Positions 50,379 to 60,823 of a stretch of 64,000 nucleotides of DNA are shown here, in pieces. Location of the stretch: contig CAMTWC010000016.1 in NCBI GenBank assembly GCA_947085345.1, forward strand, positions 5,657-69,656, read 5' to 3'. The DNA is from an uncultured Gammaproteobacteria bacterium (GTDB lineage Bacteria > Pseudomonadota > Gammaproteobacteria > Burkholderiales > Thiobacillaceae). The notes beneath the pieces are model-generated. The model saw only the letters and a list, made by a program, of their open reading frames with translations, was not told where the DNA came from and searched no databases. The number at the start of each line of letters is the position of its first letter. The stretch's first letter is position 1. A program made the translations under genes and the position numbers.

Positions 50379-50405
50379 GTCATCTCCCTTTCTCCGAAGG
50401 ATCTT

Positions 50406-50432
50406 GGGGCGCTCTGCAGGGCGCCCCTTTTT
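50406..50432 (+). terminator. Intrinsic terminator after amtB
   Basis: GGGGCGC-TCTGCAGG-GCGCCCC followed by TTTTT. Confidence 0.8.
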
Positions 50433-50472
50433 ATTGGGCGCTGTTCGCGCATGCCGTGCGTCAGGATCGTGC

Positions 50473-50622
50473 AGAACCGTTTTGGTGCACGACGGATCAC
50501 GCTTGCACCAATGCGGATCGGATTGCGGCACGGCGTGCCGCGGATCGGTCCGGGCACACCCAGAAACCCTCTTCCAATACATATGCTTGCGCGATTTGAC
50601 AGACTCTGGCACAGCCGTTGCT
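50473..50622 (+). promoter_or_regulatory. sigma54 promoter with tandem NtrC-like sites for the guanidine operon
   Basis: Consensus TGGCAC-AGCCG-TTGCT at 50607-50622; AGAACCGTTTTGGTGCA (50473) and TGCACCAATGCGGATCG (50504), each with one perfect half-site, 31 bp apart. Confidence 0.85.
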
Positions 50623-50676
50623 TTTGGTAGAACAACGGGAAAAGCGGCGCATTGTCGACCGCAAGAACCGCAAATG

Positions 50677-50773
50677 TGCAGCTAGGGTTCCGGTCTCGTT
50701 CGAGATGTCTGGTCCGAGAGCTGCCGGCACCGCCGAAGGCGGGGCTCCACGGAGGGACAAAAGCCCGGGAGAG
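50677..50773 (+). ncRNA. Guanidine-I (ykkC-yxkD) riboswitch
   Basis: P1 GCAGCT/AGCTGC, CTAGGGTTCCG, TCTGGTCCGAGAG, CACGGAGGGACAAAAGCCCGGGAG are hallmark segments; upstream of guanidine transport and catabolism genes. Confidence 0.95.
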
Positions 50774-50831
50774 TGCGATCGCGCGACGCTTTCTCCGGAA
50801 TTGACCTTGACCTTCCAACCAGGAGCCTTAC

Positions 50832-51818
50832 ATGAATATCGCGCGCCTTACCCGTACTCTCATCGTCAGTATCGGTTTTGCCCTGCTGACGCAACCCATG
50901 ACGGCGCAAGCCGAAGTCAAGATCGGCGTGTCCGACTGGCCGGGCTGGGTGGCCTGGTACGTCGCCGAGCAGAAGGGCTTCTTCAAGAAGCACGGCGCCG
51001 ACGTCAAGCTGGTCTGGTTCGCCAACTACACCGATTCGATCAGCGCCCTGTCGGCCGGCCAGGTCGACGGCAATTCGCAGACCTGGGGCGACACCATGGC
51101 GCCGCTGGCCAAGGGCGTGGCGCTGAAGACCATCCTGGTCAACGACAACTCGGCCGGCAACGACGCGCTGATGGTGGGTCCGAAGATCAAGTCGTTCAAG
51201 GACCTGAAGGGCAAGAAAGTCGCGCTGGAGGAATACAGCGTGTCGCACTTCCTGCTCACCATGGCGTTGAACAAGAATGGCATGACGCTGAAGGACGTGC
51301 AGGTGGTGAACCTCTCCGCCGGCGATGCCGCCGCCGCCTTCATGGCCGGCCGCGTGGATGCCGCCGTGGTGTGGAACCCGTGGGTGAACACCATCCAGGC
51401 CAGCGGCAAGGGCAAGCCGCTCTTCACCTCGGCCGACGTGCCGGGCATGGTGCCCGACCTGCTGGTGGTGCAGGAAAAATCGCTCAAGGCCAAGCGCAAG
51501 GACTTCATCGGCATGGTCAAGGCCTGGTACGACGTCGAAGCCTTCCTGCGCAGCAACCCGGATGAAGCGACGAAGATCATGGCCAAGGTCGTCGGTATGG
51601 ATGCGAAGGAATACAAGGTCTTCCTGCCGGGAACCAAGTTCTTCGACCAGCAGGCCAACCTCAGGGCTTTCGGCCCGGCGACCGATCCCACTTCGCTGCT
51701 GGGCGTGGCGCCGACCATTTCCAGGTTCCTGCTCGACAACAAGCTGATGGAAGGCAAGGTCGACTTCGCCAAAGGGATCGATGCCTCGCTGGTGAAGGAA
51801 GTGGCCGGCGTCAAGTAA
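50832..51818 (+). CDS. ABC transporter substrate-binding protein (SsuA/THI5-like), predicted guanidine
   Basis: Signal peptide, IGVSDWPGW, DNSAGNDAL, DAAVVWNPW; first gene under the guanidine-I riboswitch. Confidence 0.88.
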   Translation: MNIARLTRTLIVSIGFALLTQPMTAQAEVKIGVSDWPGWVAWYVAEQKGFFKKHGADVKLVWFANYTDSISALSAGQVDGNSQTWGDTMAPLAKGVALKTILVNDNSAGNDALMVGPKIKSFKDLKGKKVALEEYSVSHFLLTMALNKNGMTLKDVQVVNLSAGDAAAAFMAGRVDAAVVWNPWVNTIQASGKGKPLFTSADVPGMVPDLLVVQEKSLKAKRKDFIGMVKAWYDVEAFLRSNPDEATKIMAKVVGMDAKEYKVFLPGTKFFDQQANLRAFGPATDPTSLLGVAPTISRFLLDNKLMEGKVDFAKGIDASLVKEVAGVK

Positions 51819-51840
51819 TAAGTAATAGGGAGACGTGACA

Positions 51841-52662
51841 ATGCCATCCAGATCCGGCACCCGGCCGCGCCGCCCCGGCATGTGGTCCATCCGTGGACCG
51901 TTTGCCAGGAATCAGTACTGGCTATTCGCCGCGCTCGGGCTGCTGGTGCCGCTGGGCCTGTGGTGGTTCGTGTCGAGTGGGGCGGCAGTGGACAAGGTGT
52001 TCCTGCCCGGCCCGGCCGACGTGTTCAACCGGCTGGTCACCTGGTACACGGAAGACGATCTGATGTCCGACATGGGCATCAGCATCTACCGCGTCACCGT
52101 CGGCTTCCTCGTCTCGGCCACCCTCGCGCTGCCGCTGGCGCTGATGATCGGCACCTTCCGTCCGGTGCAGGCGATGCTGGAACCGCTCACCGACTTCATC
52201 CGCTACATGCCGGCGGTGGCTTTCATTCCGCTGGTGATGCTGTGGGTGGGGATCGAGGAGTCGTCCAAGATCGCCATCATCTTCATCGGCACCTTTTTCC
52301 AGATGGTGCTGATGATGGCCGAGGATGTGCGCCGCGTGCCGCTGGCGCAGATCGAGGCGGCGCAGACCATGGGGGCACAGAAGGGCGAGACCATCAAGCT
52401 GGTGATCTTCCAGGCCGCCAGGCCGGCGCTGCTCGACACCCTGCGCGTCACCATGGGCTGGGCCTGGACCTATCTGGTGGTGGCCGAGCTGGTCGCCGCC
52501 AATTCCGGCCTCGGCTACTCGATTCTGAAGGCGCAGCGCTTTTTGCAGACCGACAAGATTTTCGTCGGCATCATCCTGATCGGGCTCATCGGCCTGGTCA
52601 TGGATCAGCTGTTCCGCCTCGCGCACCGCAAGGCCTTCCCCTGGCTGTATCTAAAATCATGA
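51841..52662 (+). CDS. ABC transporter permease
   Basis: FLPGPADV, EPLTDFIRYMPAVAFIPL, EAAQTMGA, WAWTYLVVAELVAA; start uncertain (51835, 51841 or 51880). Confidence 0.92.
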   Translation: MPSRSGTRPRRPGMWSIRGPFARNQYWLFAALGLLVPLGLWWFVSSGAAVDKVFLPGPADVFNRLVTWYTEDDLMSDMGISIYRVTVGFLVSATLALPLALMIGTFRPVQAMLEPLTDFIRYMPAVAFIPLVMLWVGIEESSKIAIIFIGTFFQMVLMMAEDVRRVPLAQIEAAQTMGAQKGETIKLVIFQAARPALLDTLRVTMGWAWTYLVVAELVAANSGLGYSILKAQRFLQTDKIFVGIILIGLIGLVMDQLFRLAHRKAFPWLYLKS

Positions 52663-53498
52663 CCATGCCGAAAATTTCCACCCAGCATGTCGGCAAGGTG
52701 TTCGGCGAAGGCCGCCACCAGGTCGAAGCGCTGAAGGACGTCAGCCTCGACATCGCCGACAACGAATTCGTCACCTTCGTCGGCGCCTCCGGCTGCGGCA
52801 AGTCGACGCTCCTGCGCATCATCGGCGGGCTTGAATACCACACGGCGGGCGAAGTCCTGGTCGACAACCAGGCCATCCTGGGCCCGGGTGCCGACCGTGC
52901 CATGGTGTTCCAGCACTACAGTCTCTATCCCTGGCTCAAGGTGATGGAGAACATCAAGTTCAGCCGCCGCCTGAAGCATGGCCGCGAGAACATCAACGAG
53001 GCCGACGTCGAGGCCGCCTCTGGGCGCGCCGATGCGTTGCTCGCCCTGATGGGCCTCACCGCCGCGGCGGAGGCCTGGCCCAACCAGCTCTCCGGCGGCA
53101 TGCAGCAGCGTGTCGCCATTGCCCGCGCGCTGATGGGGCGGCCGGAGATCCTGCTGATGGACGAGCCCTTTGGCGCACTCGACGCACAGACGCGCGAGGT
53201 GATGCACGACCTCATCCTGCACGTGCACCGGCTGGAAAAGCCCACGCTCGCCTTCGTCACCCATGACGTCGAGGAGGCGATCTACCTGGCCGATCGCGTC
53301 GTGCTGATGGCGCCGCGCCCCGGCCGCATCGACACCATCTACCAGGTGCCGCTGCCCGCCGAGCGCGAGCAGGACATGAAGCACAGCCCGGAATTCCTGC
53401 GCCTGAAAAAGGAAATCCTTGCCCGCATCCGCGAGACCTCGGGCATGAAGACCGATCAGGGCATGCTGGATCAGTTGAATCTCACGACCGCGGCTTGA
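52659..53498 (+). CDS. ABC transporter ATP-binding protein
   Basis: GASGCGKSTLL, LSGGMQQRVAIARAL, LLMDEPFGALD, FVTHDVEEA; ATGA overlap with the permease. Confidence 0.95.
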   Translation: MTMPKISTQHVGKVFGEGRHQVEALKDVSLDIADNEFVTFVGASGCGKSTLLRIIGGLEYHTAGEVLVDNQAILGPGADRAMVFQHYSLYPWLKVMENIKFSRRLKHGRENINEADVEAASGRADALLALMGLTAAAEAWPNQLSGGMQQRVAIARALMGRPEILLMDEPFGALDAQTREVMHDLILHVHRLEKPTLAFVTHDVEEAIYLADRVVLMAPRPGRIDTIYQVPLPAEREQDMKHSPEFLRLKKEILARIRETSGMKTDQGMLDQLNLTTAA

Positions 53499-53528
53499 AC
53501 CGGCACTCATTCATCGACTGGACATCAC

Positions 53529-54266
53529 ATGGCACAAACGCTTAATCCCTTGCCACCCGACTTGTTTCTCTGGGAAGAGCTGCTTCCAGGCGGCTGTCAC
53601 TGGTCGGGCATCCTGCGCCGCGGCAACGCGCTCCGGCTCGCCGATCTGACCGGCCGCGCCAACGTCTCGGCGCTGTTCTATAACGCCGAGGAAAAACTCG
53701 AGCGCTACAACATGGCCGACACGCTCAAGGCGCAGCACACCGCGCACCTCACGACGGGCCATGTCTGCTATTCCGACATGGGGCACGTGCTGTGCTCGGT
53801 GGTCAACGATAGCTGCGGCTGGCACGACACGATGTGCGGCACCAGCAACGCCGGGACGGTCAGGGCGAAGTACGGCGAAGCGACCTATCAGACCCACCGC
53901 AACGCCATGCACCGCAACGGGCGCGACGGCCTGCTGATCGAACTCGGCAAGTGGGGACTGGGCAAGCGCGACGTGGTGCCGAACGTGAATTTCTTCAGCA
54001 AGGTGGTGGCCGACGAGGCCGGCCGGCTGCATTTCGACGAAGCGAATTCGCGTCCCGGCGCCTACGTCGACCTGCGTTTCGAAATGAACGTGCTGGTCGT
54101 GCTCTCCGCCGCGCCGCACCCGCTCGATCCGCGCCCCGACTATGCGCCGGGCGACGTCATGCTGACCGCGTGGAAGGCCGGCACGCCGGGTGCGGACGAC
54201 ACCTGCCGCAACGCCTGCGCGGAAAACCAGCGCGGCTTCTATCAAACCGAAATCCTGTACCGCTGA
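53529..54266 (+). CDS. cgdA: Carboxyguanidine deiminase subunit (urea carboxylase-associated protein, DUF1989)
   Basis: [40 protein letters not shown]; first of two DUF1989 paralogs before the carboxylase. Confidence 0.82.
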
Positions 54267-54274
54267 GGCCAGAC

Positions 54275-54934
54275 ATGAGCACCTTCAACCTTGTCGAAAG
54301 CCCTTTTGATCCCAAGCAGGCCATCGTCGATGCCGTTGTCAACGCCGGCGACCCGTGGATCCACGAAATCAAGAAGGGCCAGATCTTCCGCATCCTCGAC
54401 CTCGAAGGCAACCAGGCGGTCGACACGCTGTTCTACAACGCCCGCGCCCCCGAGGAACGCTACAGCGCCGCCGACACCGTGCGCGCGCAGGGTGCGCTCT
54501 ATCTCACCGCCGGCACCCAGCTGATGTCGACCGAGGGCAGGGCGATGCTGACGATTACCGCCGACACCTGCGGCCGCCACGACACGCTCGGCGGCGCCTG
54601 CTCGTGCGAGAGCAACGCCGTGCGCTACGCGCTCGACAAGCGGCCGATGCATTCCTGCCGTGACAGCTTCCTGCATGCGCTCGCGCACTACGACGGCGGG
54701 CTCACCAAGCGCGACATCACCAGCAACATCAACTTCTTCATGAACGTGCCGGTGACGCGTGAGGGCGGCCTGACCTTCGCCGACGGCGTGTCGGCGCCCG
54801 GCAAATATGTGGAAATGCGCGCCGAGATGGACGTGCTGTGCCTGATCTCCAACTGCCCTCAGCTCAACAATCCGTGCAACGCCTACAACCCGACGCCGGT
54901 CCGGGTGCTGATCTGGGACGCGCCCAAACAATAA
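54275..54934 (+). CDS. cgdB: Carboxyguanidine deiminase subunit (urea carboxylase-associated protein, DUF1989)
   Basis: [55 protein letters not shown]. Confidence 0.85.
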
Positions 54935-54941
54935 AACCTGA

Positions 54942-54985
54942 CGGCGGGACGCCCCGCCGCGGAGACTGCACGCGGGACGACCCGC
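54942..54985 (+). ncRNA. Guanidine-II (mini-ykkC)-like riboswitch internal to the operon
   Basis: CGGCGGG-ACGC-CCCGCCG (54942-54959), 12-nt linker, GCGGG-ACGA-CCCGC (54972-54985), immediately followed by the SD AAGGA and ATG 54999; first loop ACGC deviates from ACGR. Confidence 0.7.
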
Positions 54986-54998
54986 AAGGAAGCAAAAC

Positions 54999-57900
54999 AT
55001 GTTCGACAAGGTTCTCATCGCCAACCGCGGCGCCATCGCCTGCCGCATCATCCGCACCCTGCGCACGATGGGGGTGAAATCGGTCGCCGTCTATTCCGAG
55101 GCCGACCGTCATTCGCTGCACGTGCGCCTCGCCGACGAGGCTGTCGAGATCGGACCGGCGCCGGCGGCGCAGAGCTACCTGCGCGCCGAGAAGATTCTCG
55201 AAGCGGCCAAGGCCACCGGCGCCCAGGCGATCCATCCGGGCTACGGCTTCCTTTCCGAGAACCCCGGCTTCGCTGAGGACTGCGCGGCAGCGGGCATCGC
55301 CTTCATCGGGCCGAGTCCTGCGCAGATGCGCGCCTTCGGCCTCAAGCACACCGCGCGCGACCTGGCCGAGCACAACAAGGTGCCGCTGCTGCCGGGTTCC
55401 GGCCTGCTCGCGGACGCCGGCCACGCCCAGGCCGAGGCCGCGCGCATCGGCTACCCGGTGATGCTGAAGAGCACCGCCGGCGGCGGCGGCATCGGCATGC
55501 GCTTGATCTGGAGCGCCGACGAACTGGTCGAAGCCTTCCAGTCGGTCGAGCGGCTGGCCCGCGCCAACTTCAAGGAGGCCGGCATTTTTCTCGAAAAATA
55601 CGTCGAGCGCGCGCGCCATATCGAAGTGCAGATCTTCGGCGACGGCCGCGGCCACGTGGTCGCGCTGGGCGAGCGCGATTGCTCGGTGCAGCGTCGCAAC
55701 CAGAAAGTGATCGAGGAAACCCCCGCACCCGGCCTCACCGACATGCAACGTGAGCAATTGCGCGCTACCGCGGTGCGCCTGGGCGAGGCCGTCGGCTACC
55801 GCTCCGCCGGCACCGTCGAATTCGTGTACGACACCTTGAGCGGCGCGTTCTATTTCCTGGAAGTGAACACGCGCCTGCAGGTCGAGCACGGCGTCACCGA
55901 GGAAGTCACCGGCGTCGATCTGGTCGAGTGGATGGTGAAGGAGGCTGCCGGCGAGCTGGACTTGTCCGGCTTCAGGGCCGAACCCAAGGGCGCGTCCATG
56001 CAGGTGCGCCTCTACGCCGAAGACCCGGGCAAGGATTTCCAGCCCGCCGCCGGCGTATTGACCGAAGTGGTGTTTCCGGCCGACGCCCGCATCGAAACCT
56101 GGGTCGAGCGCGGTTCCGACGTGTCGCCGTTCTACGACCCCATGGTCGCCAAGATCATCGTCAAGGGCAGCGACCGTGCCGAGGCGCTGGCCAAGATGCA
56201 GCGGGTGCTCGCGCACACACGCGTCGCCGGCATCGAGACCAACCTCGGTTACCTCGCCCAGATCGTGCGCGACGCGGTGTTCAGGGAGGGGCGCCAGACC
56301 ACGCGCTACCTCAACGCCTTCCACTACCGCCCGGCGACCCTCGACGTCATCGAGCCCGGCGTGCAGAGCAGCATCCAGGACTGGCCGGGACGCACCGGTT
56401 ACTGGGACGTCGGCGTGCCGCCCTCCGGTCCGATGGATGCGCTGGCGCTGCGCCTCGCCAATAAACTGGCGGGCAATGAAGAGGGTGCGGCTGGACTGGA
56501 ACTGACGGTGGCCGGCCCCACGCTGCGCTTCAACTGCGACAGCGTGATCGCGCTGGCCGGCGCCGATATGGGCGCCGAACTCGAGGGACAGCCGCTCGCC
56601 AACTGGGCCGCGCATGCGGTGAAGGCCGGCTCGCTGCTGAAACTGGGTGCCATCAGGGACACCGGCTGTCGCGCCTACCTCGCGGTGCGCGGCGGCTTCG
56701 ACGTGCCGGATTATCTCGGCAGCAAAGCCACCTTCACCCTCGGCCAGTTCGGCGGCCATGCCGGGCGCACGTTGCGGGCCGGCGACGTGCTGCATATCCC
56801 GCCCGTCACCCCGGCGGACGCCGGGGTCCAGTTGAACGCACTGGATACCGGCATTCACCCGCAAGGGGTAGGCCATGGTTGTAAAGCCGCTGAAGCGGCA
56901 ACAACCATGCACCGCCGGTATGACGATCCTCCCGCCTACACCCACGCCTGGGAAATCGGCGTGCTGTACGGCCCGCACGGCGCACCGGACTTCTTTACCG
57001 ACGCCGACATCGACATGTTCTTTTCCACCGACTGGGAAGTGCATTACAACTCCAGCCGCACCGGCGTACGGTTAATCGGCCCGCGCCCGCAGTGGGCGCG
57101 CAAGGACGGTGGCGAGGCCGGCCTGCATCCGTCCAACATCCACGACAACGCCTACGCCATCGGCGCGGTCGACTTCACCGGCGACATGCCGGTGATCCTC
57201 GGCCCGGACGGCCCCAGCCTCGGCGGCTTCGTCTGCCCCGCCACCATCGTGCAGGCCGAGCTGTGGAAGATGGGCCAGCTGCGCCCCGGTGACACCGTAC
57301 GTTTCAAGCGCCTGAGCCAGACGCAGGCTGAGCAGATGGAAGCGGAGCAGGATGCCGCCATCGCGACCCTGTCATTCCGGGCTGCGACCCGGAATCCAGA
57401 AATTAGACTGGACCCCGGCACAGGCCGGAATGACGACGAACTCGCCGAACCCGTCCTCCACCGCATCCCCGAAACCGACAACCCCGTCGCCGTGGCCTAC
57501 CGCCGCGCCGGCGACAAATATCTGCTGGTCGAATATGGCCCGCTGGTGCTCGACCTTAACCTGCGCTTCCGCGTGCACGCGCTGATGACCCGGCTGCAGG
57601 CCGATTCCGTGCCGGGCATCCTCGACCTTACCCCCGGCATTCGTTCGCTGCAGGTGCACTACGACTCGCGCGTGCTGCCGCTGCAGAAGCTGATGGAGTT
57701 GCTGCTGGCGGCGGAAAAGGCGCTGCCCGCCATCGAGGACATGCAGGTGCCCACCCGCATCGTACATATCCCGCTGTCGTGGGACGATGCCGCCACGCGG
57801 CTGGCGATCGAGAAATACATGCAGTCGGTGCGCAAGGACGCGCCCTGGTGCCCGAGCAACATCGAGTTCATCCGCCGCATCAACGGACTGGACAGCATCG

Positions 57901-58709
57901 ACGAGGTGAAGCGCATCGTCTTCGACGCCAGCTACCTGGTGCTGGGTTTGGGCGACGTCTATCTAGGCGCGCCGGTGGCGACGCCGGTCGACCCGCGCCA
58001 TCGTCTCGTCACCACCAAATACAACCCCGCCCGCACCTGGACCCCGGAAAACGCCGTCGGCATCGGCGGCGCCTACCTATGCGTCTACGGCATGGAAGGC
58101 CCCGGCGGCTACCAGTTTGTCGGCCGCACCCTGCAGATGTGGAACCGCTGGCGAGCAACCCGAGACTTCACCGGCGGCAAGCCGTGGCTGCTGCGTTTCT
58201 TCGACCAGGTGCGCTTCTTCCCGGTGAGCGAGGCCGAGCTTTTGAAAATCCGCGAGGACTTCCCGCTCGGGCGCTACCAATTGAAGGTGGAGGAAACCAC
58301 CTTCAGCCTGCGCGACTACAACACCTTCCTCGCCGACAACGCCGAGTCCATCGCCGCCTTCAAGGCGCGGCAACAGGCCTCGTTCGACGCCGAGCGCGAA
58401 CGCTGGCGCGCGAGCGGCCAGGCCGAATACGCCAGCGACATCACCGTCGCCGAAGCCTCCACCGACAGCGAACTCGACCTGCCCGAAAACGGCCGCGCCG
58501 TTGCCAGCCACGTCGCCGGCAATGTCTGGAAGGTGGAAGTCGAAGAGGGCGCCGAAGTGAAGCAGGGCGATCCGCTCGTCATCGTCGAATCGATGAAGAT
58601 GGAGTTCGCCGTGCTGGCGCCGTGCGATGGCCGCATCCACAAGGTGTTCTGCCGCGAAGGCGGGCAGGTGAGCGCCGGGCAGGATTTGCTGGTGTTGGTG
58701 AGCGAGTGA
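54999..58709 (+). CDS. uca: Biotin-dependent urea/guanidine carboxylase
   Basis: BC domain (LIANRGAIA, HPGYGFLSEN, ERDCSVQRRNQK, EVNTRLQVEH), CT domain (HDNAYAIG, GPSLGGFVCP, KYNPARTWTP, GPGGYQ), biotin site ESMKME. Confidence 0.96.
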   Translation: MFDKVLIANRGAIACRIIRTLRTMGVKSVAVYSEADRHSLHVRLADEAVEIGPAPAAQSYLRAEKILEAAKATGAQAIHPGYGFLSENPGFAEDCAAAGIAFIGPSPAQMRAFGLKHTARDLAEHNKVPLLPGSGLLADAGHAQAEAARIGYPVMLKSTAGGGGIGMRLIWSADELVEAFQSVERLARANFKEAGIFLEKYVERARHIEVQIFGDGRGHVVALGERDCSVQRRNQKVIEETPAPGLTDMQREQLRATAVRLGEAVGYRSAGTVEFVYDTLSGAFYFLEVNTRLQVEHGVTEEVTGVDLVEWMVKEAAGELDLSGFRAEPKGASMQVRLYAEDPGKDFQPAAGVLTEVVFPADARIETWVERGSDVSPFYDPMVAKIIVKGSDRAEALAKMQRVLAHTRVAGIETNLGYLAQIVRDAVFREGRQTTRYLNAFHYRPATLDVIEPGVQSSIQDWPGRTGYWDVGVPPSGPMDALALRLANKLAGNEEGAAGLELTVAGPTLRFNCDSVIALAGADMGAELEGQPLANWAAHAVKAGSLLKLGAIRDTGCRAYLAVRGGFDVPDYLGSKATFTLGQFGGHAGRTLRAGDVLHIPPVTPADAGVQLNALDTGIHPQGVGHGCKAAEAATTMHRRYDDPPAYTHAWEIGVLYGPHGAPDFFTDADIDMFFSTDWEVHYNSSRTGVRLIGPRPQWARKDGGEAGLHPSNIHDNAYAIGAVDFTGDMPVILGPDGPSLGGFVCPATIVQAELWKMGQLRPGDTVRFKRLSQTQAEQMEAEQDAAIATLSFRAATRNPEIRLDPGTGRNDDELAEPVLHRIPETDNPVAVAYRRAGDKYLLVEYGPLVLDLNLRFRVHALMTRLQADSVPGILDLTPGIRSLQVHYDSRVLPLQKLMELLLAAEKALPAIEDMQVPTRIVHIPLSWDDAATRLAIEKYMQSVRKDAPWCPSNIEFIRRINGLDSIDEVKRIVFDASYLVLGLGDVYLGAPVATPVDPRHRLVTTKYNPARTWTPENAVGIGGAYLCVYGMEGPGGYQFVGRTLQMWNRWRATRDFTGGKPWLLRFFDQVRFFPVSEAELLKIREDFPLGRYQLKVEETTFSLRDYNTFLADNAESIAAFKARQQASFDAERERWRASGQAEYASDITVAEASTDSELDLPENGRAVASHVAGNVWKVEVEEGAEVKQGDPLVIVESMKMEFAVLAPCDGRIHKVFCREGGQVSAGQDLLVLVSE
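56804..56925. repeat. Palindromic REP-like element read in frame inside uca, with a nested hairpin
   Basis: CGTCA...TGACG ends; CCCCGGC-GGAC-GCCGGGG, TCCAG/CTGGA, TACCGGC...GCCGGTA; right loop holds CATGGTTGT...GCCGC-TGAA-GCGGC...ACAACCATG. Confidence 0.8.
57371..57434. repeat. Second palindromic REP-like element read in frame inside uca
   Basis: Perfect 10-bp terminal IR GTCATTCCGG/CCGGAATGAC; ATTCCGGG-CTGCGA-CCCGGAAT, TCCAG/CTGGA, CCGGC-ACAG-GCCGG. Confidence 0.85.
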
Positions 58710-58719
58710 GGCGCGCAGC

Positions 58720-60513
58720 ATGAATGTCTCGCTCGACATCGCCAGCCTGCGCCGCCTGTATCAGTCCGGCGAACTCATTCCGCTTAAACTGGTGGAAGAT
58801 TTGCTTGCCCGTCTGGCCGGCGAGGACTCCCACCGCATCTGGATCACCCGCCTCGATGCTGACGCCCTGCGCGCCTACGCCCGCAAGCTCGAAGGCCAGG
58901 ACATCGCGAGCCTGCCGCTCTACGGCATCCCCTTCGCCATCAAGGACAACATCGACCTCGCCGGCCTGCCCACCACCGCCGCCTGCCCCGAGTATGCGTA
59001 CACGCCGGAGCGGCACGCCACCGTCGTGCAGCGCCTGATCGACGCCGGCGCCATTGCCATCGGCAAGACCAACCTCGACCAGTTCGCCACAGGCCTCAAT
59101 GGCACCCGCTCGCCCTACGGCGCCTGCCGCAACGCCTTCAACCCCGACTACATCTCCGGCGGCTCCAGCTCCGGCTCGGCGGTGGCGGTGGCGCTCGGGC
59201 TGGCGAGCTTCTCGCTCGGCACCGACACCGCCGGCTCCGGCCGCGTGCCCGCCGCGTTCAACAACCTCGTCGGCCACAAGCCGAGCTGCGGCGCGCTGTC
59301 CACACGCGGCGTGGTTCCCGCCTGCCGCTCGCTCGATGCGGTGTCGATCTTCGCGCTCACCGCCGAGGACGCCGAGCGCGTGCTGGTGGTCGCCGCCGGC
59401 TTCGATGCCGACGATGAATATTCGCGTCCGCTTGCACCGCACGGTTTCGACTTCGGCCGCGCAGCCAATTTCAGATTCGGCGTGCCGACGCAAAAGGATC
59501 TGGAATTCTTCGGCAACGCCGACGCGGAAAGACTGTTCGGCGAGGCGGTGGCACGCATGCAGGCGCTGGGCGGCACGCCAATCGCAGTCGACCTCGCCCC
59601 CTTCCTGGAAACCGCGCGCCTGCTCTACGGCGGCCCCTGGGTCGCCGAGCGCTACCTCGCCATCCGCGACTTCTTCGACGCGCAGTCCGACAAAGTCTTC
59701 CCGCCGGTGCGCGACATCATCGCCGGCGGCCGCGATATCAGCGCCGCCGACACCTTCGCCCATCTCTACAGGCTGCGCGCGGCCAAGCGTGTATGCGATG
59801 CGGTGTGGAACGACATCGACGTCATGCTCACCCCCACCGCCGGGACGATCTATCGCATCGATGAAATGCAGGCCGACCCCATCCGCCTCAATTCCAATCT
59901 CGGCTATTACACCAACTTCATGAACCTGCTCGACCTCGCCGCCACCGCCGTGCCGGCCGGGTTCCAGAATGACGGCCTGCCGTTCGGCGTCACCCTCATC
60001 GCGCCGCCGCATCAGGACGGCCCGCTGCTGCATCTGGCTTCCAGAATGCAGCAGGCGCTCGGTGGCAGGCTGGGCGCCACCACACATGCGCTGCCGCCTG
60101 CCGAGTCGCTGAATCTGCTGCCGGACGGCCAGGTGCGCGTTGCCGTCGTCGGCGCCCATCTCAGCGGCTTGCCGCTCAACCATCAACTCACGGAGCGCAA
60201 TGCGCGTCTGGTAGCCACGACGCAGACCGCGCCGGCCTACCGCTTCTACGCCCTGTCCGACGGCAAGCGCCCCGGCCTCATCAAAGTCCAGGAAGGCGGC
60301 GCCACCATCGCCTGCGAAGTATGGGAAATGCCTGCCGGCCAGTTCGGTTCCTTCGTCGCCGGCATCCCCGCGCCGCTCGGCATCGGCAAGCTGGAACTGG
60401 CCGATGGCTCCGTCGTGAACGGGTTCATCTGCGAAGGCATCGGCGTCGCCGATGCACAGGACATTACGGAATACGGGGGGTGGAAGGCGTGGTTGGCAGG
60501 GCGTGGGAAATGA
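58720..60513 (+). CDS. atzF: Allophanate hydrolase (amidase signature)
   Basis: IKDNID, GKTNLDQFATGL, GGSSSGS, LGTDTAGSGRVPA, YYTNFMNLLD, C-terminal VAVVGAHLSGLPLN domain. Confidence 0.95.
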   Translation: MNVSLDIASLRRLYQSGELIPLKLVEDLLARLAGEDSHRIWITRLDADALRAYARKLEGQDIASLPLYGIPFAIKDNIDLAGLPTTAACPEYAYTPERHATVVQRLIDAGAIAIGKTNLDQFATGLNGTRSPYGACRNAFNPDYISGGSSSGSAVAVALGLASFSLGTDTAGSGRVPAAFNNLVGHKPSCGALSTRGVVPACRSLDAVSIFALTAEDAERVLVVAAGFDADDEYSRPLAPHGFDFGRAANFRFGVPTQKDLEFFGNADAERLFGEAVARMQALGGTPIAVDLAPFLETARLLYGGPWVAERYLAIRDFFDAQSDKVFPPVRDIIAGGRDISAADTFAHLYRLRAAKRVCDAVWNDIDVMLTPTAGTIYRIDEMQADPIRLNSNLGYYTNFMNLLDLAATAVPAGFQNDGLPFGVTLIAPPHQDGPLLHLASRMQQALGGRLGATTHALPPAESLNLLPDGQVRVAVVGAHLSGLPLNHQLTERNARLVATTQTAPAYRFYALSDGKRPGLIKVQEGGATIACEVWEMPAGQFGSFVAGIPAPLGIGKLELADGSVVNGFICEGIGVADAQDITEYGGWKAWLAGRGK

Positions 60514-60540
60514 CTGCAAACAACATCTATCGCAGTTGTT

Positions 60541-60765
60541 TCAATACACCCATTCCTCATGCCGCACGGGCAATTGATTGAGCTGATCCCGGCACAGCCG
60601 CCAGCTCGGCATGAATTGATCCATCAGCGCGACGAAGCGCGCGTTGTGTGTCGGTTCGAGGAGGTGCGTCATTTCATGCACCACAATATATTCGAGACAC
60701 TCGCGCGGTTTCCTGGCCAGGTCGGTGTTGAGGCGGATGCTCTGTTTGGCTGAATTGCAGCCTCC
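60541..60765 (-). pseudogene. 3' fragment of an M48/YgjP-like metallopeptidase
   Basis: My minus-strand translation: GGCNSAKQSIRLNTDLARKPRECLEYIVVHEMTHLLEPTHNARFVALMDQFMPSWR...EEWVY-stop (HExxH); no N-terminal half; absent from the ORF track. Confidence 0.8.
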
Positions 60766-60823
60766 CTGGAATATAGACGTCCTTGCCGCCCACGGGCGTT
60801 GCGGTTAAGCGGGACGAATAAGA

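What the first reader, a model, noticed from the sequence alone, without database searches (positions are those of the whole stretch)
54935..55001. Second, different guanidine riboswitch class (guanidine-II-like) inside the operon, gating the carboxylase
Seen: in the 64-nt cgdB-uca gap, two GC hairpins with ACGC and ACGA tetraloops 12 nt apart, the second abutting the AAGGA SD. Known: guanidine-II riboswitches are tandem ACGR hairpins that kiss on ligand binding, act on translation and have lower affinity than guanidine-I. Inference: two-threshold control, with transporter and deiminase induced first and the large ATP/biotin-consuming carboxylase only at higher guanidine. The ACGC loop is a non-canonical variant.
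Basis: partly seen in the sequence, partly recalled or inferred. Interest (0 to 1): 0.72.

Follow-up and report, generated by a model that had tools for sequence, protein, structure and literature searches.

The report
Guanidine-II riboswitch before guanidine carboxylase
The two small hairpins in front of the carboxylase gene are a genuine guanidine-II (mini-ykkC) riboswitch inside a guanidine-I-headed guanidine-degradation operon, an arrangement published in 2017, so it is real but ordinary apart from an unusual pyrimidine in one loop.

Summary
Window 54942-54985 (+) holds hairpin P1 (CGGCGGG-ACGC-CCCGCCG), a 12-nt linker and hairpin P2 (GCGGG-ACGA-CCCGC). P2 abuts the Shine-Dalgarno (SD) sequence AAGGAAG, 13 nt before the carboxylase ATG at 54999.

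It is a guanidine-II riboswitch. Rfam RF01068 gives only 25.4 bits against a cut-off of 32. A model built from 43 orthologous elements outside the genus gives 43.2 bits (E 1.5e-6 over the whole genome; next hit 20.7 bits). Of 81 cgdB-uca junctions examined, 55 carry the same tandem hairpins just upstream of the start codon. Loop-to-loop spacing is 27-34 nt. Eleven of 13 stem pairs show compensatory changes. Thirteen of 14 relatives tested pass the Rfam cut-off at that position.

A guanidine-I aptamer (89.9 bits) heads the operon. This dual-riboswitch architecture was described in 2017 and again in 2025.

The one unusual point is loop position 4. Pyrimidines (ACGC or ACGU) recur in this Thiobacillus genus but are rare elsewhere, and they push the Rfam score of several of these elements below the cut-off or out of detection.

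The parts
54942..54959 (+). P1 hairpin of the guanidine-II aptamer: 7-bp stem CGGCGGG/CCCGCCG with tetraloop ACGC (54949-54952). Loop position 4 is a pyrimidine instead of the consensus purine.
   Evidence: Sequence; RF01068 alignment; custom model R1; P1 stem pairs covary in 54 orthologues.
54960..54971 (+). Linker of 12 nt, CGGAGACUGCAC. It is nearly identical across the genus and AGACUGCA is shared with L010.
   Evidence: Loop-to-loop spacing is 28 nt here and 27-34 nt in 54 relatives.
54972..54985 (+). P2 hairpin of the guanidine-II aptamer: 5-bp stem GCGGG/CCCGC with canonical tetraloop ACGA (54977-54980).
   Evidence: 98.5% of cells paired; 4 of 5 pairs with compensatory changes.
54986..55001 (+). 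Shine-Dalgarno AAGGAAG (54986-54992) directly after P2, a 6-nt spacer, and the uca start codon ATG (54999-55001).
   Evidence: In relatives the distance from the P2 loop to the ATG is mostly 15-26 nt.
54927..54941 (+). 5' tail, covering the last cgdB codons, the stop and 7 nt more. CCU (54937-54939) and AACA could pair weakly with AGG of the SD and UGUU at the start codon, forming a candidate P0-like helix. This is not statistically supported.
   Evidence: MFE structure; duplex test z = -0.2.
50671..50773 (+). Guanidine-I aptamer at the head of the operon.
   Evidence: RF00442, 89.9 bits against a cut-off of 63, E 7.7e-15.
50832..53498 (+). ABC importer genes: NMT1/SsuA-type binding protein 50832-51818, permease 51835-52662, ATPase 52659-53498.
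   Evidence: Pfam and NCBIfam; ATGA overlap read.
53529..54934 (+). cgdA (53529-54266) and cgdB (54275-54934): DUF1989 / UAAP1 and UAAP2, the carboxyguanidine deiminase subunits.
   Evidence: PF09347 at 218 and 235 bits; TIGR03425 and TIGR03424 above cut-off; start of cgdB.
54999..58709 (+). uca, a 1236-aa biotin-dependent urea/guanidine carboxylase. This is the gene gated by the guanidine-II element.
   Evidence: TIGR02712 at 1921.7 bits; Pfam domain set.
58720..60513 (+). Allophanate hydrolase gene, 10 nt after uca and probably translationally coupled to it.
   Evidence: TIGR02713 at 810.6 bits; Amidase plus AH_C domains.

Best explanation
Window 54942-54985 is a guanidine-II (mini-ykkC) riboswitch aptamer in the 64-nt intercistronic gap between cgdB and the guanidine carboxylase gene uca. 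It lies in an operon whose leader carries a guanidine-I riboswitch. Shown here: the two hairpins, their homology with canonical guanidine-II elements at the same place in many Proteobacteria, stem covariation, invariant ACG loop nucleotides with closing G-C pairs, and a fixed position just upstream of the SD and start codon. Inferred from published work on the family: each loop binds one guanidinium ion. The C and G of the two loops pair with each other (a kissing complex), which sets P1 and P2 end to end. This pulls the 5' tail away from the SD and start region, so ribosomes can initiate on uca and, by coupling, on the allophanate hydrolase gene. The result would be guanidine-dependent control of the carboxylase at translation, on top of the guanidine-I control at the operon's head. 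The C at P1 loop position 4 sits at the flipped-out stacking position. It probably modulates sensitivity rather than abolishing function.
For: The anatomy was read, and the pattern is unique in the window (0 of 100 shuffles). RF01068 aligns end to end at 25.4 bits and is the best hit in the genome. Model R1, built only from 43 non-genus orthologues, gives 43.2 bits, E 1.5e-6 genome-wide, with the next hit at 20.7 bits. Of 81 cgdB-uca junctions, 55 carry tandem GACGNC hairpins with loop-to-loop spacing of 27-34 nt, and P2 ends mostly 15-26 nt before the ATG. Thirteen of 14 relatives pass the Rfam cut-off at the same position (34.6-53.4 bits), and 13 of 14 have guanidine-I upstream on the same strand. 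For covariation, 92.7% of cells are paired against 72.9% in shuffles and at most 48% with slid partners; 11 of 13 pairs show compensatory changes, reached by 0 of 500 shuffles. The gene context is the complete guanidine carboxylase pathway. No +-strand terminator or sigma70-like promoter lies in the gap. Literature: PMC5558903, PMC12186494, PMC5486947, PMC10351892.
Against: The Rfam score is below the gathering cut-off (25.4 against 32). The P1 loop is ACGC. [quoted passage not shown] No anti-SD or P0 helix is detectable above chance, either here or across 54 relatives (mean z about 0), so the expression platform is not demonstrated.
Confidence: 0.85

Rival explanations
1. Two-threshold control. 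Here guanidine-II has a clearly higher switching concentration than guanidine-I. The importer and CgdAB would come on first, and the ATP- and biotin-consuming carboxylase only at higher guanidine.
For: Both riboswitch classes are present in one operon. Loop position 4 is known to tune KD from 59 to 264 µM (A versus G; PMC9300104), so a pyrimidine might raise it further. The in-vivo K1/2 of the P. aeruginosa switch is about 2 mM (PMC10351892). Import first would raise internal guanidine, acting as a feed-forward step.
Against: [quoted passage not shown] CgdAB acts after the carboxylase, so inducing it earlier brings no benefit. Nothing here measures thresholds. The published view is simply dual transcriptional and translational control (PMC5558903).
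Confidence: 0.25
2. A decaying or ligand-insensitive remnant. The pyrimidine at P1 loop position 4 weakens the loop-loop stack so that the element no longer switches, and uca is translated constitutively (or poorly) once the mRNA is made.
For: A purine at position 4 is part of both the bioinformatic and the biochemical consensus (PMC10351892). Several genus members carry ACGC or ACGU loops. Twenty-six of 81 junctions lack the element entirely, so it is dispensable in some lineages.
Against: All ligand-contacting nucleotides (A, C and G of the loops and the closing G-C pairs), both stems and the spacing are intact in every genus member, including those with Y loops. Position 4 points away from the binding pocket (PMC5558903). 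Y loops occur in at least two separate clades. A decaying element would be expected to accumulate stem mismatches as well.
Confidence: 0.1
3. Generic intercistronic GC hairpins, acting as an mRNA stabiliser, an RNase barrier or a REP-type repeat, with no ligand sensing. Alternatively, a minus-strand intrinsic terminator formed by P1 plus the downstream T-run.
For: The terminator scan flags P1 on the minus strand (GCGGCGGGGCGTCCCGCCGT followed by CAGGTTTTAT). REP-like hairpin insertions do occur in this gap in relatives.
Against: The ACG loops are invariant and the closing pairs conserved across 54 divergent sequences while the stems covary. The element is unique in the genome, not repeated. 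No gene on the minus strand needs a terminator here, and the A-rich 5' flank is not conserved in relatives.
Confidence: 0.03

Closest known systems
Guanidine-II riboswitch (mini-ykkC, Rfam RF01068), e.g. the Pseudomonas aeruginosa, Gloeobacter violaceus and E. coli sugE elements
   Same: Two tandem GC-rich hairpins with ACG-N tetraloops closed by G-C pairs. The linker falls within the published 7-40 nt range. The element sits directly before the SD and start codon of a guanidine-related gene, and the stems covary.
   Different: The P1 loop is ACGC rather than ACGR. The Rfam score is below the cut-off. The element is intercistronic, 7 nt after the stop codon of the preceding gene, not in a 5' leader. 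No recognisable anti-SD was found.
Dual guanidine-I / guanidine-II guanidine-assimilation operons (Sherlock et al. [quoted passage not shown]
   Same: Guanidine-I lies ahead of the ABC importer and carboxyguanidine deiminase genes. Guanidine-II lies immediately ahead of the guanidine carboxylase and allophanate hydrolase genes.
   Different: The host is a chemolithoautotrophic Thiobacillus. The guanidine-I platform here has no U-tract terminator. A sigma54-type promoter motif lies upstream.
Tandem riboswitch arrangements in general (e.g. tandem glycine aptamers, two-input tandem riboswitches)
   Same: More than one ligand-sensing RNA governs one transcription unit, and the two guanidine-II sites bind cooperatively.
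   Different: Here two unrelated folds sense the same ligand at two different places in the operon and probably at two levels of expression.

Membership tests
Guanidine-II riboswitch (RF01068) | Two tandem stem-loops joined by a 7-40-nt linker | tested here: met
   P1 54942-54959, 12-nt linker, P2 54972-54985.
Guanidine-II riboswitch (RF01068) | Invariant A-C-G at loop positions 1-3 and conserved G-C closing pairs in both hairpins (the ligand-contacting and kissing nucleotides) | tested here: met
   GGG-ACG-N-CCC in both hairpins. These columns are invariant in 54 orthologues.
Guanidine-II riboswitch (RF01068) | Purine at loop position 4 in both loops (ACGR consensus) | tested here: not met
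   P2 is ACGA and meets it. P1 is ACGC and does not. This is a consensus feature rather than an absolute one: 3 of about 33 elements in a 401-genome sample of the order have one Y loop, and 5 of 12 elements from this Thiobacillus group (11 same-genus genomes including the window, plus L009) do.
Guanidine-II riboswitch (RF01068) | Score at or above the Rfam gathering cut-off (32 bits) | tested here: not met
   The window scores 25.4 bits. The near-identical L094 (ACGG) scores 30.8 and L093 (ACGA) 32.5. The deficit therefore comes from the loop C together with a genus-wide architecture that scores near the cut-off even with a purine loop. Independent model R1 gives 43.2 bits, E 1.5e-6 genome-wide.
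Guanidine-II riboswitch (RF01068) | Stem covariation supporting both helices | tested here: met
   Eleven of 13 pairs show compensatory changes, 92.7% of cells are paired, and 0 of 500 shuffles reach this. Caveat: the rows were chosen requiring at least 3 of the 4 loop-proximal pairs.
Guanidine-II riboswitch (RF01068) | Location next to the ribosome-binding site of a guanidine-related gene (carboxylase or Gdx exporter) | tested here: met
   The SD abuts P2 and the uca ATG is 13 nt after P2. The same placement is seen in 55 of 81 junctions.
Guanidine-II riboswitch (RF01068) | Orthology with elements that pass the family cut-off | tested here: met
   Thirteen of 14 relatives score 34.6-53.4 bits at the same junction. 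Same-genus L092, L093, L096 and L097 score 32.5-40.4 bits.
Guanidine-II riboswitch (RF01068) | Cooperative, selective guanidinium binding and an ON effect on translation | not testable with these tools
   This needs in-line probing or a reporter assay.
Dual guanidine-I + guanidine-II carboxylase-pathway operon | Guanidine-I aptamer ahead of the importer and cgdAB genes, with guanidine-II ahead of the carboxylase and allophanate hydrolase genes on the same strand | tested here: met
   RF00442 scores 89.9 bits at 50671-50773. Gene order. The same layout is seen in 13 of 14 relatives.

The most novel reading that the evidence does not exclude
In this Thiobacillus genus the fourth loop nucleotide of guanidine-II hairpins has repeatedly become a pyrimidine: ACGC in the window and L090, ACGU in L091, in both loops of L098, and in P2 of L099. 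This could be an adaptive tuning knob that raises the switching threshold or alters cooperativity for the costly carboxylase. With two self-complementary ACGU loops, it might allow a four-pair, partly ligand-independent kissing complex. Together with a guanidine-I platform that lacks a terminator, the operon might be split into two purely translational guanidine-gated units under a sigma54 promoter.
Probability: 0.2. Interest if true: 0.45.

Novelty: new member of a known kind. Interest (0 to 1): 0.25.

Why it matters
This does not change what is known about guanidine riboswitches. The fold, the ligand, the target gene and the guanidine-I plus guanidine-II operon layout are all published.

It has practical value for annotation. 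Cut-off-based Rfam annotation misses the element in this genome and in about 7 of 11 same-genus genomes, so guanidine-responsive control of the carboxylase is under-called in Thiobacillus.

It also supplies two natural variants the mutational literature has not examined. One is a set of pyrimidine variants at loop position 4. The other is a relative with a 143-nt structured insertion in the linker. Both could be used to study how sensitivity and cooperativity of this very small switch are tuned.

Tried and rejected
1. Anti-SD or P0 helix. I ran a duplex-energy test of the 5' tail against the 3' tail, and of the linker against the 3' tail, in 54 elements against shuffled tails. Mean z was about 0. 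The window's own candidate (CCU/AGG plus AACA/UGUU) has z = -0.2. No general expression-platform pairing could be shown.

2. Internal promoter or terminator. No sigma70-like promoter appears anywhere in 50400-60800, and no +-strand terminator lies in the gap. The only 'terminator' is P1 read on the minus strand, which I reject as chance.

3. A second guanidine-II element in the genome. The next hits score at most 20.7 bits and lie in coding sequence, so I reject this.

4. RNA-seq evidence for co-transcription.

5. Sherlock et al. 2017 (Biochemistry) could not be read. Its content is cited only through PMC5558903 and PMC5486947.

6. A tree of flanking DNA was built to count independent R-to-Y changes. 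The genus clade is mostly unresolved, and the automatic loop labels in that script were wrong because they caught a coding GACGCG. Only the topology was used, with loop states taken.

7. The Asp/Asn residue that separates guanidine from urea carboxylases (K. lactis position 1330, PMC11410670) was not mapped, because no residue-level HMM alignment was available.

Full report
**Observation**

- The cgdB stop codon is at 54932-54934 and the uca ATG at 54999.
- P1 spans 54942-54959: CGGCGGG, loop ACGC, CCCGCCG.
- A 12-nt linker follows.
- P2 spans 54972-54985: GCGGG, loop ACGA, CCCGC.
- The Shine-Dalgarno (SD) sequence AAGGAAG directly abuts P2.

This is more than chance would give. The pattern GGGACGNCCC-N(8-30)-GGGACGNCCC occurs once in the window and in none of 100 shuffles. 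The segment folds better than all 200 shuffles, with z = -3.24. The two-hairpin centroid (-28.0 kcal/mol) is about as stable as an extended hairpin (-28.8 kcal/mol) in which P1 strands pair with P2 strands. That alternative is expected when two hairpins have nearly the same sequence.

**Context**

Pfam and NCBIfam give one same-strand gene series:
- a guanidine-I aptamer at 50671-50773 (RF00442, 89.9 bits against a cut-off of 63);
- an NMT1/SsuA-type binding protein at 50832-51818;
- a permease at 51835-52662;
- an ATPase at 52659-53498, with an ATGA overlap;
- cgdA at 53529-54266 and cgdB at 54275-54934 (DUF1989, UAAP1 and UAAP2);
- urea/guanidine carboxylase at 54999-58709 (TIGR02712, 1921.7 bits);
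- allophanate hydrolase at 58720-60513.

This is the complete guanidine carboxylase pathway. All other intercistronic gaps are 30 nt or shorter, or overlap. Only the cgdB-uca gap is long, and the element fills it.

**Is it a guanidine-II riboswitch?**

Rfam RF01068 aligns end to end but scores 25.4 bits, below the 32-bit cut-off. It is nevertheless the best hit in the 2.86-Mb genome.

Comparative evidence settles the question. I fetched 80 loci encoding CgdB relatives from Thiobacillaceae, Gallionellaceae, Sulfuricellaceae, Methylophilaceae, Burkholderiaceae, Ectothiorhodospiraceae, Halomonas and others. I also fetched 10 same-genus loci. The findings are as follows.
- Of 81 cgdB-uca junctions (window included), 55 carry two GACGNC-cored hairpins just upstream of the uca start.
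- Loop-to-loop spacing is 27-34 nt, with one exception at 171 nt.
- The P2 loop ends mostly 15-26 nt before the ATG.
- Junctions without the element mostly have very short gaps or overlapping genes.
- Of 14 relatives scanned with Rfam, 13 pass the RF01068 cut-off at this position (34.6-53.4 bits), and 13 have guanidine-I upstream on the same strand.

In a 54-sequence alignment (A1) the ACG loop bases and the closing G-C pairs are invariant, while the stems vary. Of the cells, 92.7% form standard pairs. Shuffles give 72.9%, and slid partners at most 48%. Eleven of 13 pairs show compensatory changes, and 0 of 500 shuffles reach the observed values. One caveat applies: rows were selected for at least 3 of the 4 loop-proximal pairs, but the outer pairs were not selected and they covary most.

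A covariance model built only from the 43 non-genus sequences scores the window element at 43.2 bits, E 1.5e-6 over the whole genome. The next hit scores 20.7 bits. The element is therefore a homologue of canonical guanidine-II riboswitches at the orthologous position.

**Why the Rfam score is low**

Same-genus elements identical to the window except at P1 loop position 4 score as follows.

| Element | P1 loop | Rfam bits |
|---|---|---|
| L093 | ACGA | 32.5 |
| L094 | ACGG | 30.8 |
| L091 | ACGU | 27.6 |
| L090 | ACGC | 27.2 |
| Window | ACGC | 25.4 |

L098 and L099, which carry ACGU in P2, give no hit at E of 1 or less. The pyrimidine costs about 3-7 bits. The genus-wide architecture scores near the cut-off even with a purine loop. 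About 7 of 11 genus elements are invisible to cut-off-based annotation.

**Mechanism**

The following steps are shown here: the structure, its conservation, its placement at the ribosome-binding site, and its co-occurrence with guanidine-I and the pathway genes.

The following steps are inferred from the literature.
- Each ACGR loop binds one guanidinium ion.
- The loop C and G form intermolecular pairs with the partner loop, and the position-4 purines flip out and stack on each other (PMC5558903).
- Binding is cooperative, with a Hill coefficient of about 1.4 and an affinity of about 50 µM (PMC5486947).
- The class acts only on translation.
- In the P. aeruginosa switch the real platform is a helix between the 5' and 3' tails, which dimerisation pulls apart. 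Direct SD sequestration is dispensable there (PMC10351892).

In the window the only candidate for such a helix is weak: CCU with AGG, and AACA with UGUU. Neither it nor its counterparts in 54 relatives exceed shuffled controls. The expression platform therefore remains inferred.

No terminator or sigma70-type promoter lies in the gap.

**Comparison with what is known**

The architecture is published. [quoted passage not shown] 2017)' (PMC5558903). A 2025 review describes importer plus carboxyguanidine deaminase under guanidine-I, with carboxylase plus allophanate hydrolase immediately downstream under guanidine-II, in three enterobacteria (PMC12186494).

Reported in-vitro affinities of the two classes are similar. 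The deiminase also acts after the carboxylase, so inducing it first gives no gain. It remains a testable sub-hypothesis.

**What is slightly unusual**

Loop position 4 is the one departure from the consensus. Loop states as P1/P2 in this Thiobacillus group (11 same-genus genomes including the window, plus L009) are below.

| Element | P1 / P2 position 4 |
|---|---|
| Window | C / A |
| L090 | C / A |
| L091 | U / A |
| L098 | U / U |
| L099 | A / U |
| L092 | A / A |
| L093 | A / A |
| L095 | A / A |
| L094 | G / A |
| L009 | G / A |
| L096 | G / G |
| L097 | A / G |

- That is 6 pyrimidines in 24 loops within this group, against 1 in 86 loops among the other relatives. Fisher p is 4e-4, not corrected for phylogeny.
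- In an even sample of 401 genomes of the order, only 3 of about 33 riboswitch-like matches carry a Y loop: the window, a Sulfuricellaceae genome, and one other.
- The P2 U states of L098 and L099 lie in different, well-supported clades, so the change arose more than once.
- The stems and ACG bases stay intact in all of these elements.

Published mutagenesis finds a purine preferred at this site (PMC10351892). A versus G shifts KD between 59 and 264 µM (PMC9300104), but pyrimidines have not been characterised. My reading is that position 4 is weakly constrained in this lineage and may tune sensitivity. Adaptive tuning is possible but unproven.

**Verdict**

The arrangement is already known. 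This is a new, sub-threshold member of the family with a minor loop variant. Interest is low to moderate.

Noticed in passing
L009:5697-5840 (Thiobacillus denitrificans UBA4768): The guanidine-II element of the closest relative has a 143-nt insertion in the P1-P2 linker. The insertion folds into one long self-contained hairpin (whole region z -7.75), leaving P1 and P2 only a few nt from its base. It matches Rfam sX9 (RF02228, 45.4 bits) on the minus strand and is probably a REP/MITE-like repeat. The linker is far beyond the published 7-40 nt, and Rfam misses the riboswitch there.
   Followed up: partly
L098:1514-1559, L099:1613-1660, L091:1665-1710, L090:1614-1659 (same-genus genomes): Guanidine-II loops with a pyrimidine at position 4: ACGU in both loops of L098, in P2 of L099 and in P1 of L091, and ACGC in L090. 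GGGACGUCCC is a perfect palindrome, so two ACGU loops could in principle form four rather than two kissing pairs.
   Followed up: partly
window 50607-50621: A sigma54-type -24/-12 motif, TGGCAC-N5-TTGC, lies about 50 nt upstream of the guanidine-I aptamer. This suggests nitrogen-regulated transcription of the operon. Another first-stage note also flagged it.
   Followed up: partly
window 50774-50831: The guanidine-I expression platform has a hairpin (CCGGGAGAG...CUUUCUCCGG) but no U-tract, so it is not a classic intrinsic terminator. The MFE structure pairs aptamer 3' bases (CUCC, GGAGGG) with the SD region of the binding-protein gene (z -1.2, not significant). Guanidine-I may act on translation here.
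   Followed up: partly
G002 and G024 (loci L098, L097), between the cgdB stop and P1: Same-genus genomes carry extra segments of about 85-150 nt between cgdB and the riboswitch (split BLAST matches). This intercistronic gap appears to be a landing site for repeat elements.
   Followed up: no
G078 contigs C73, C97, C118 and G381:C51: Arrays of 27-nt tandem repeats, GGGACGCCCCGCAGGAAGTCCCCTTGG, matched the hairpin pattern. They are unrelated to the riboswitch and their nature is unknown.
   Followed up: no
window 52659-52662: The ABC ATPase start ATG overlaps the permease stop (ATGA), which indicates translational coupling within the importer genes.
   Followed up: yes
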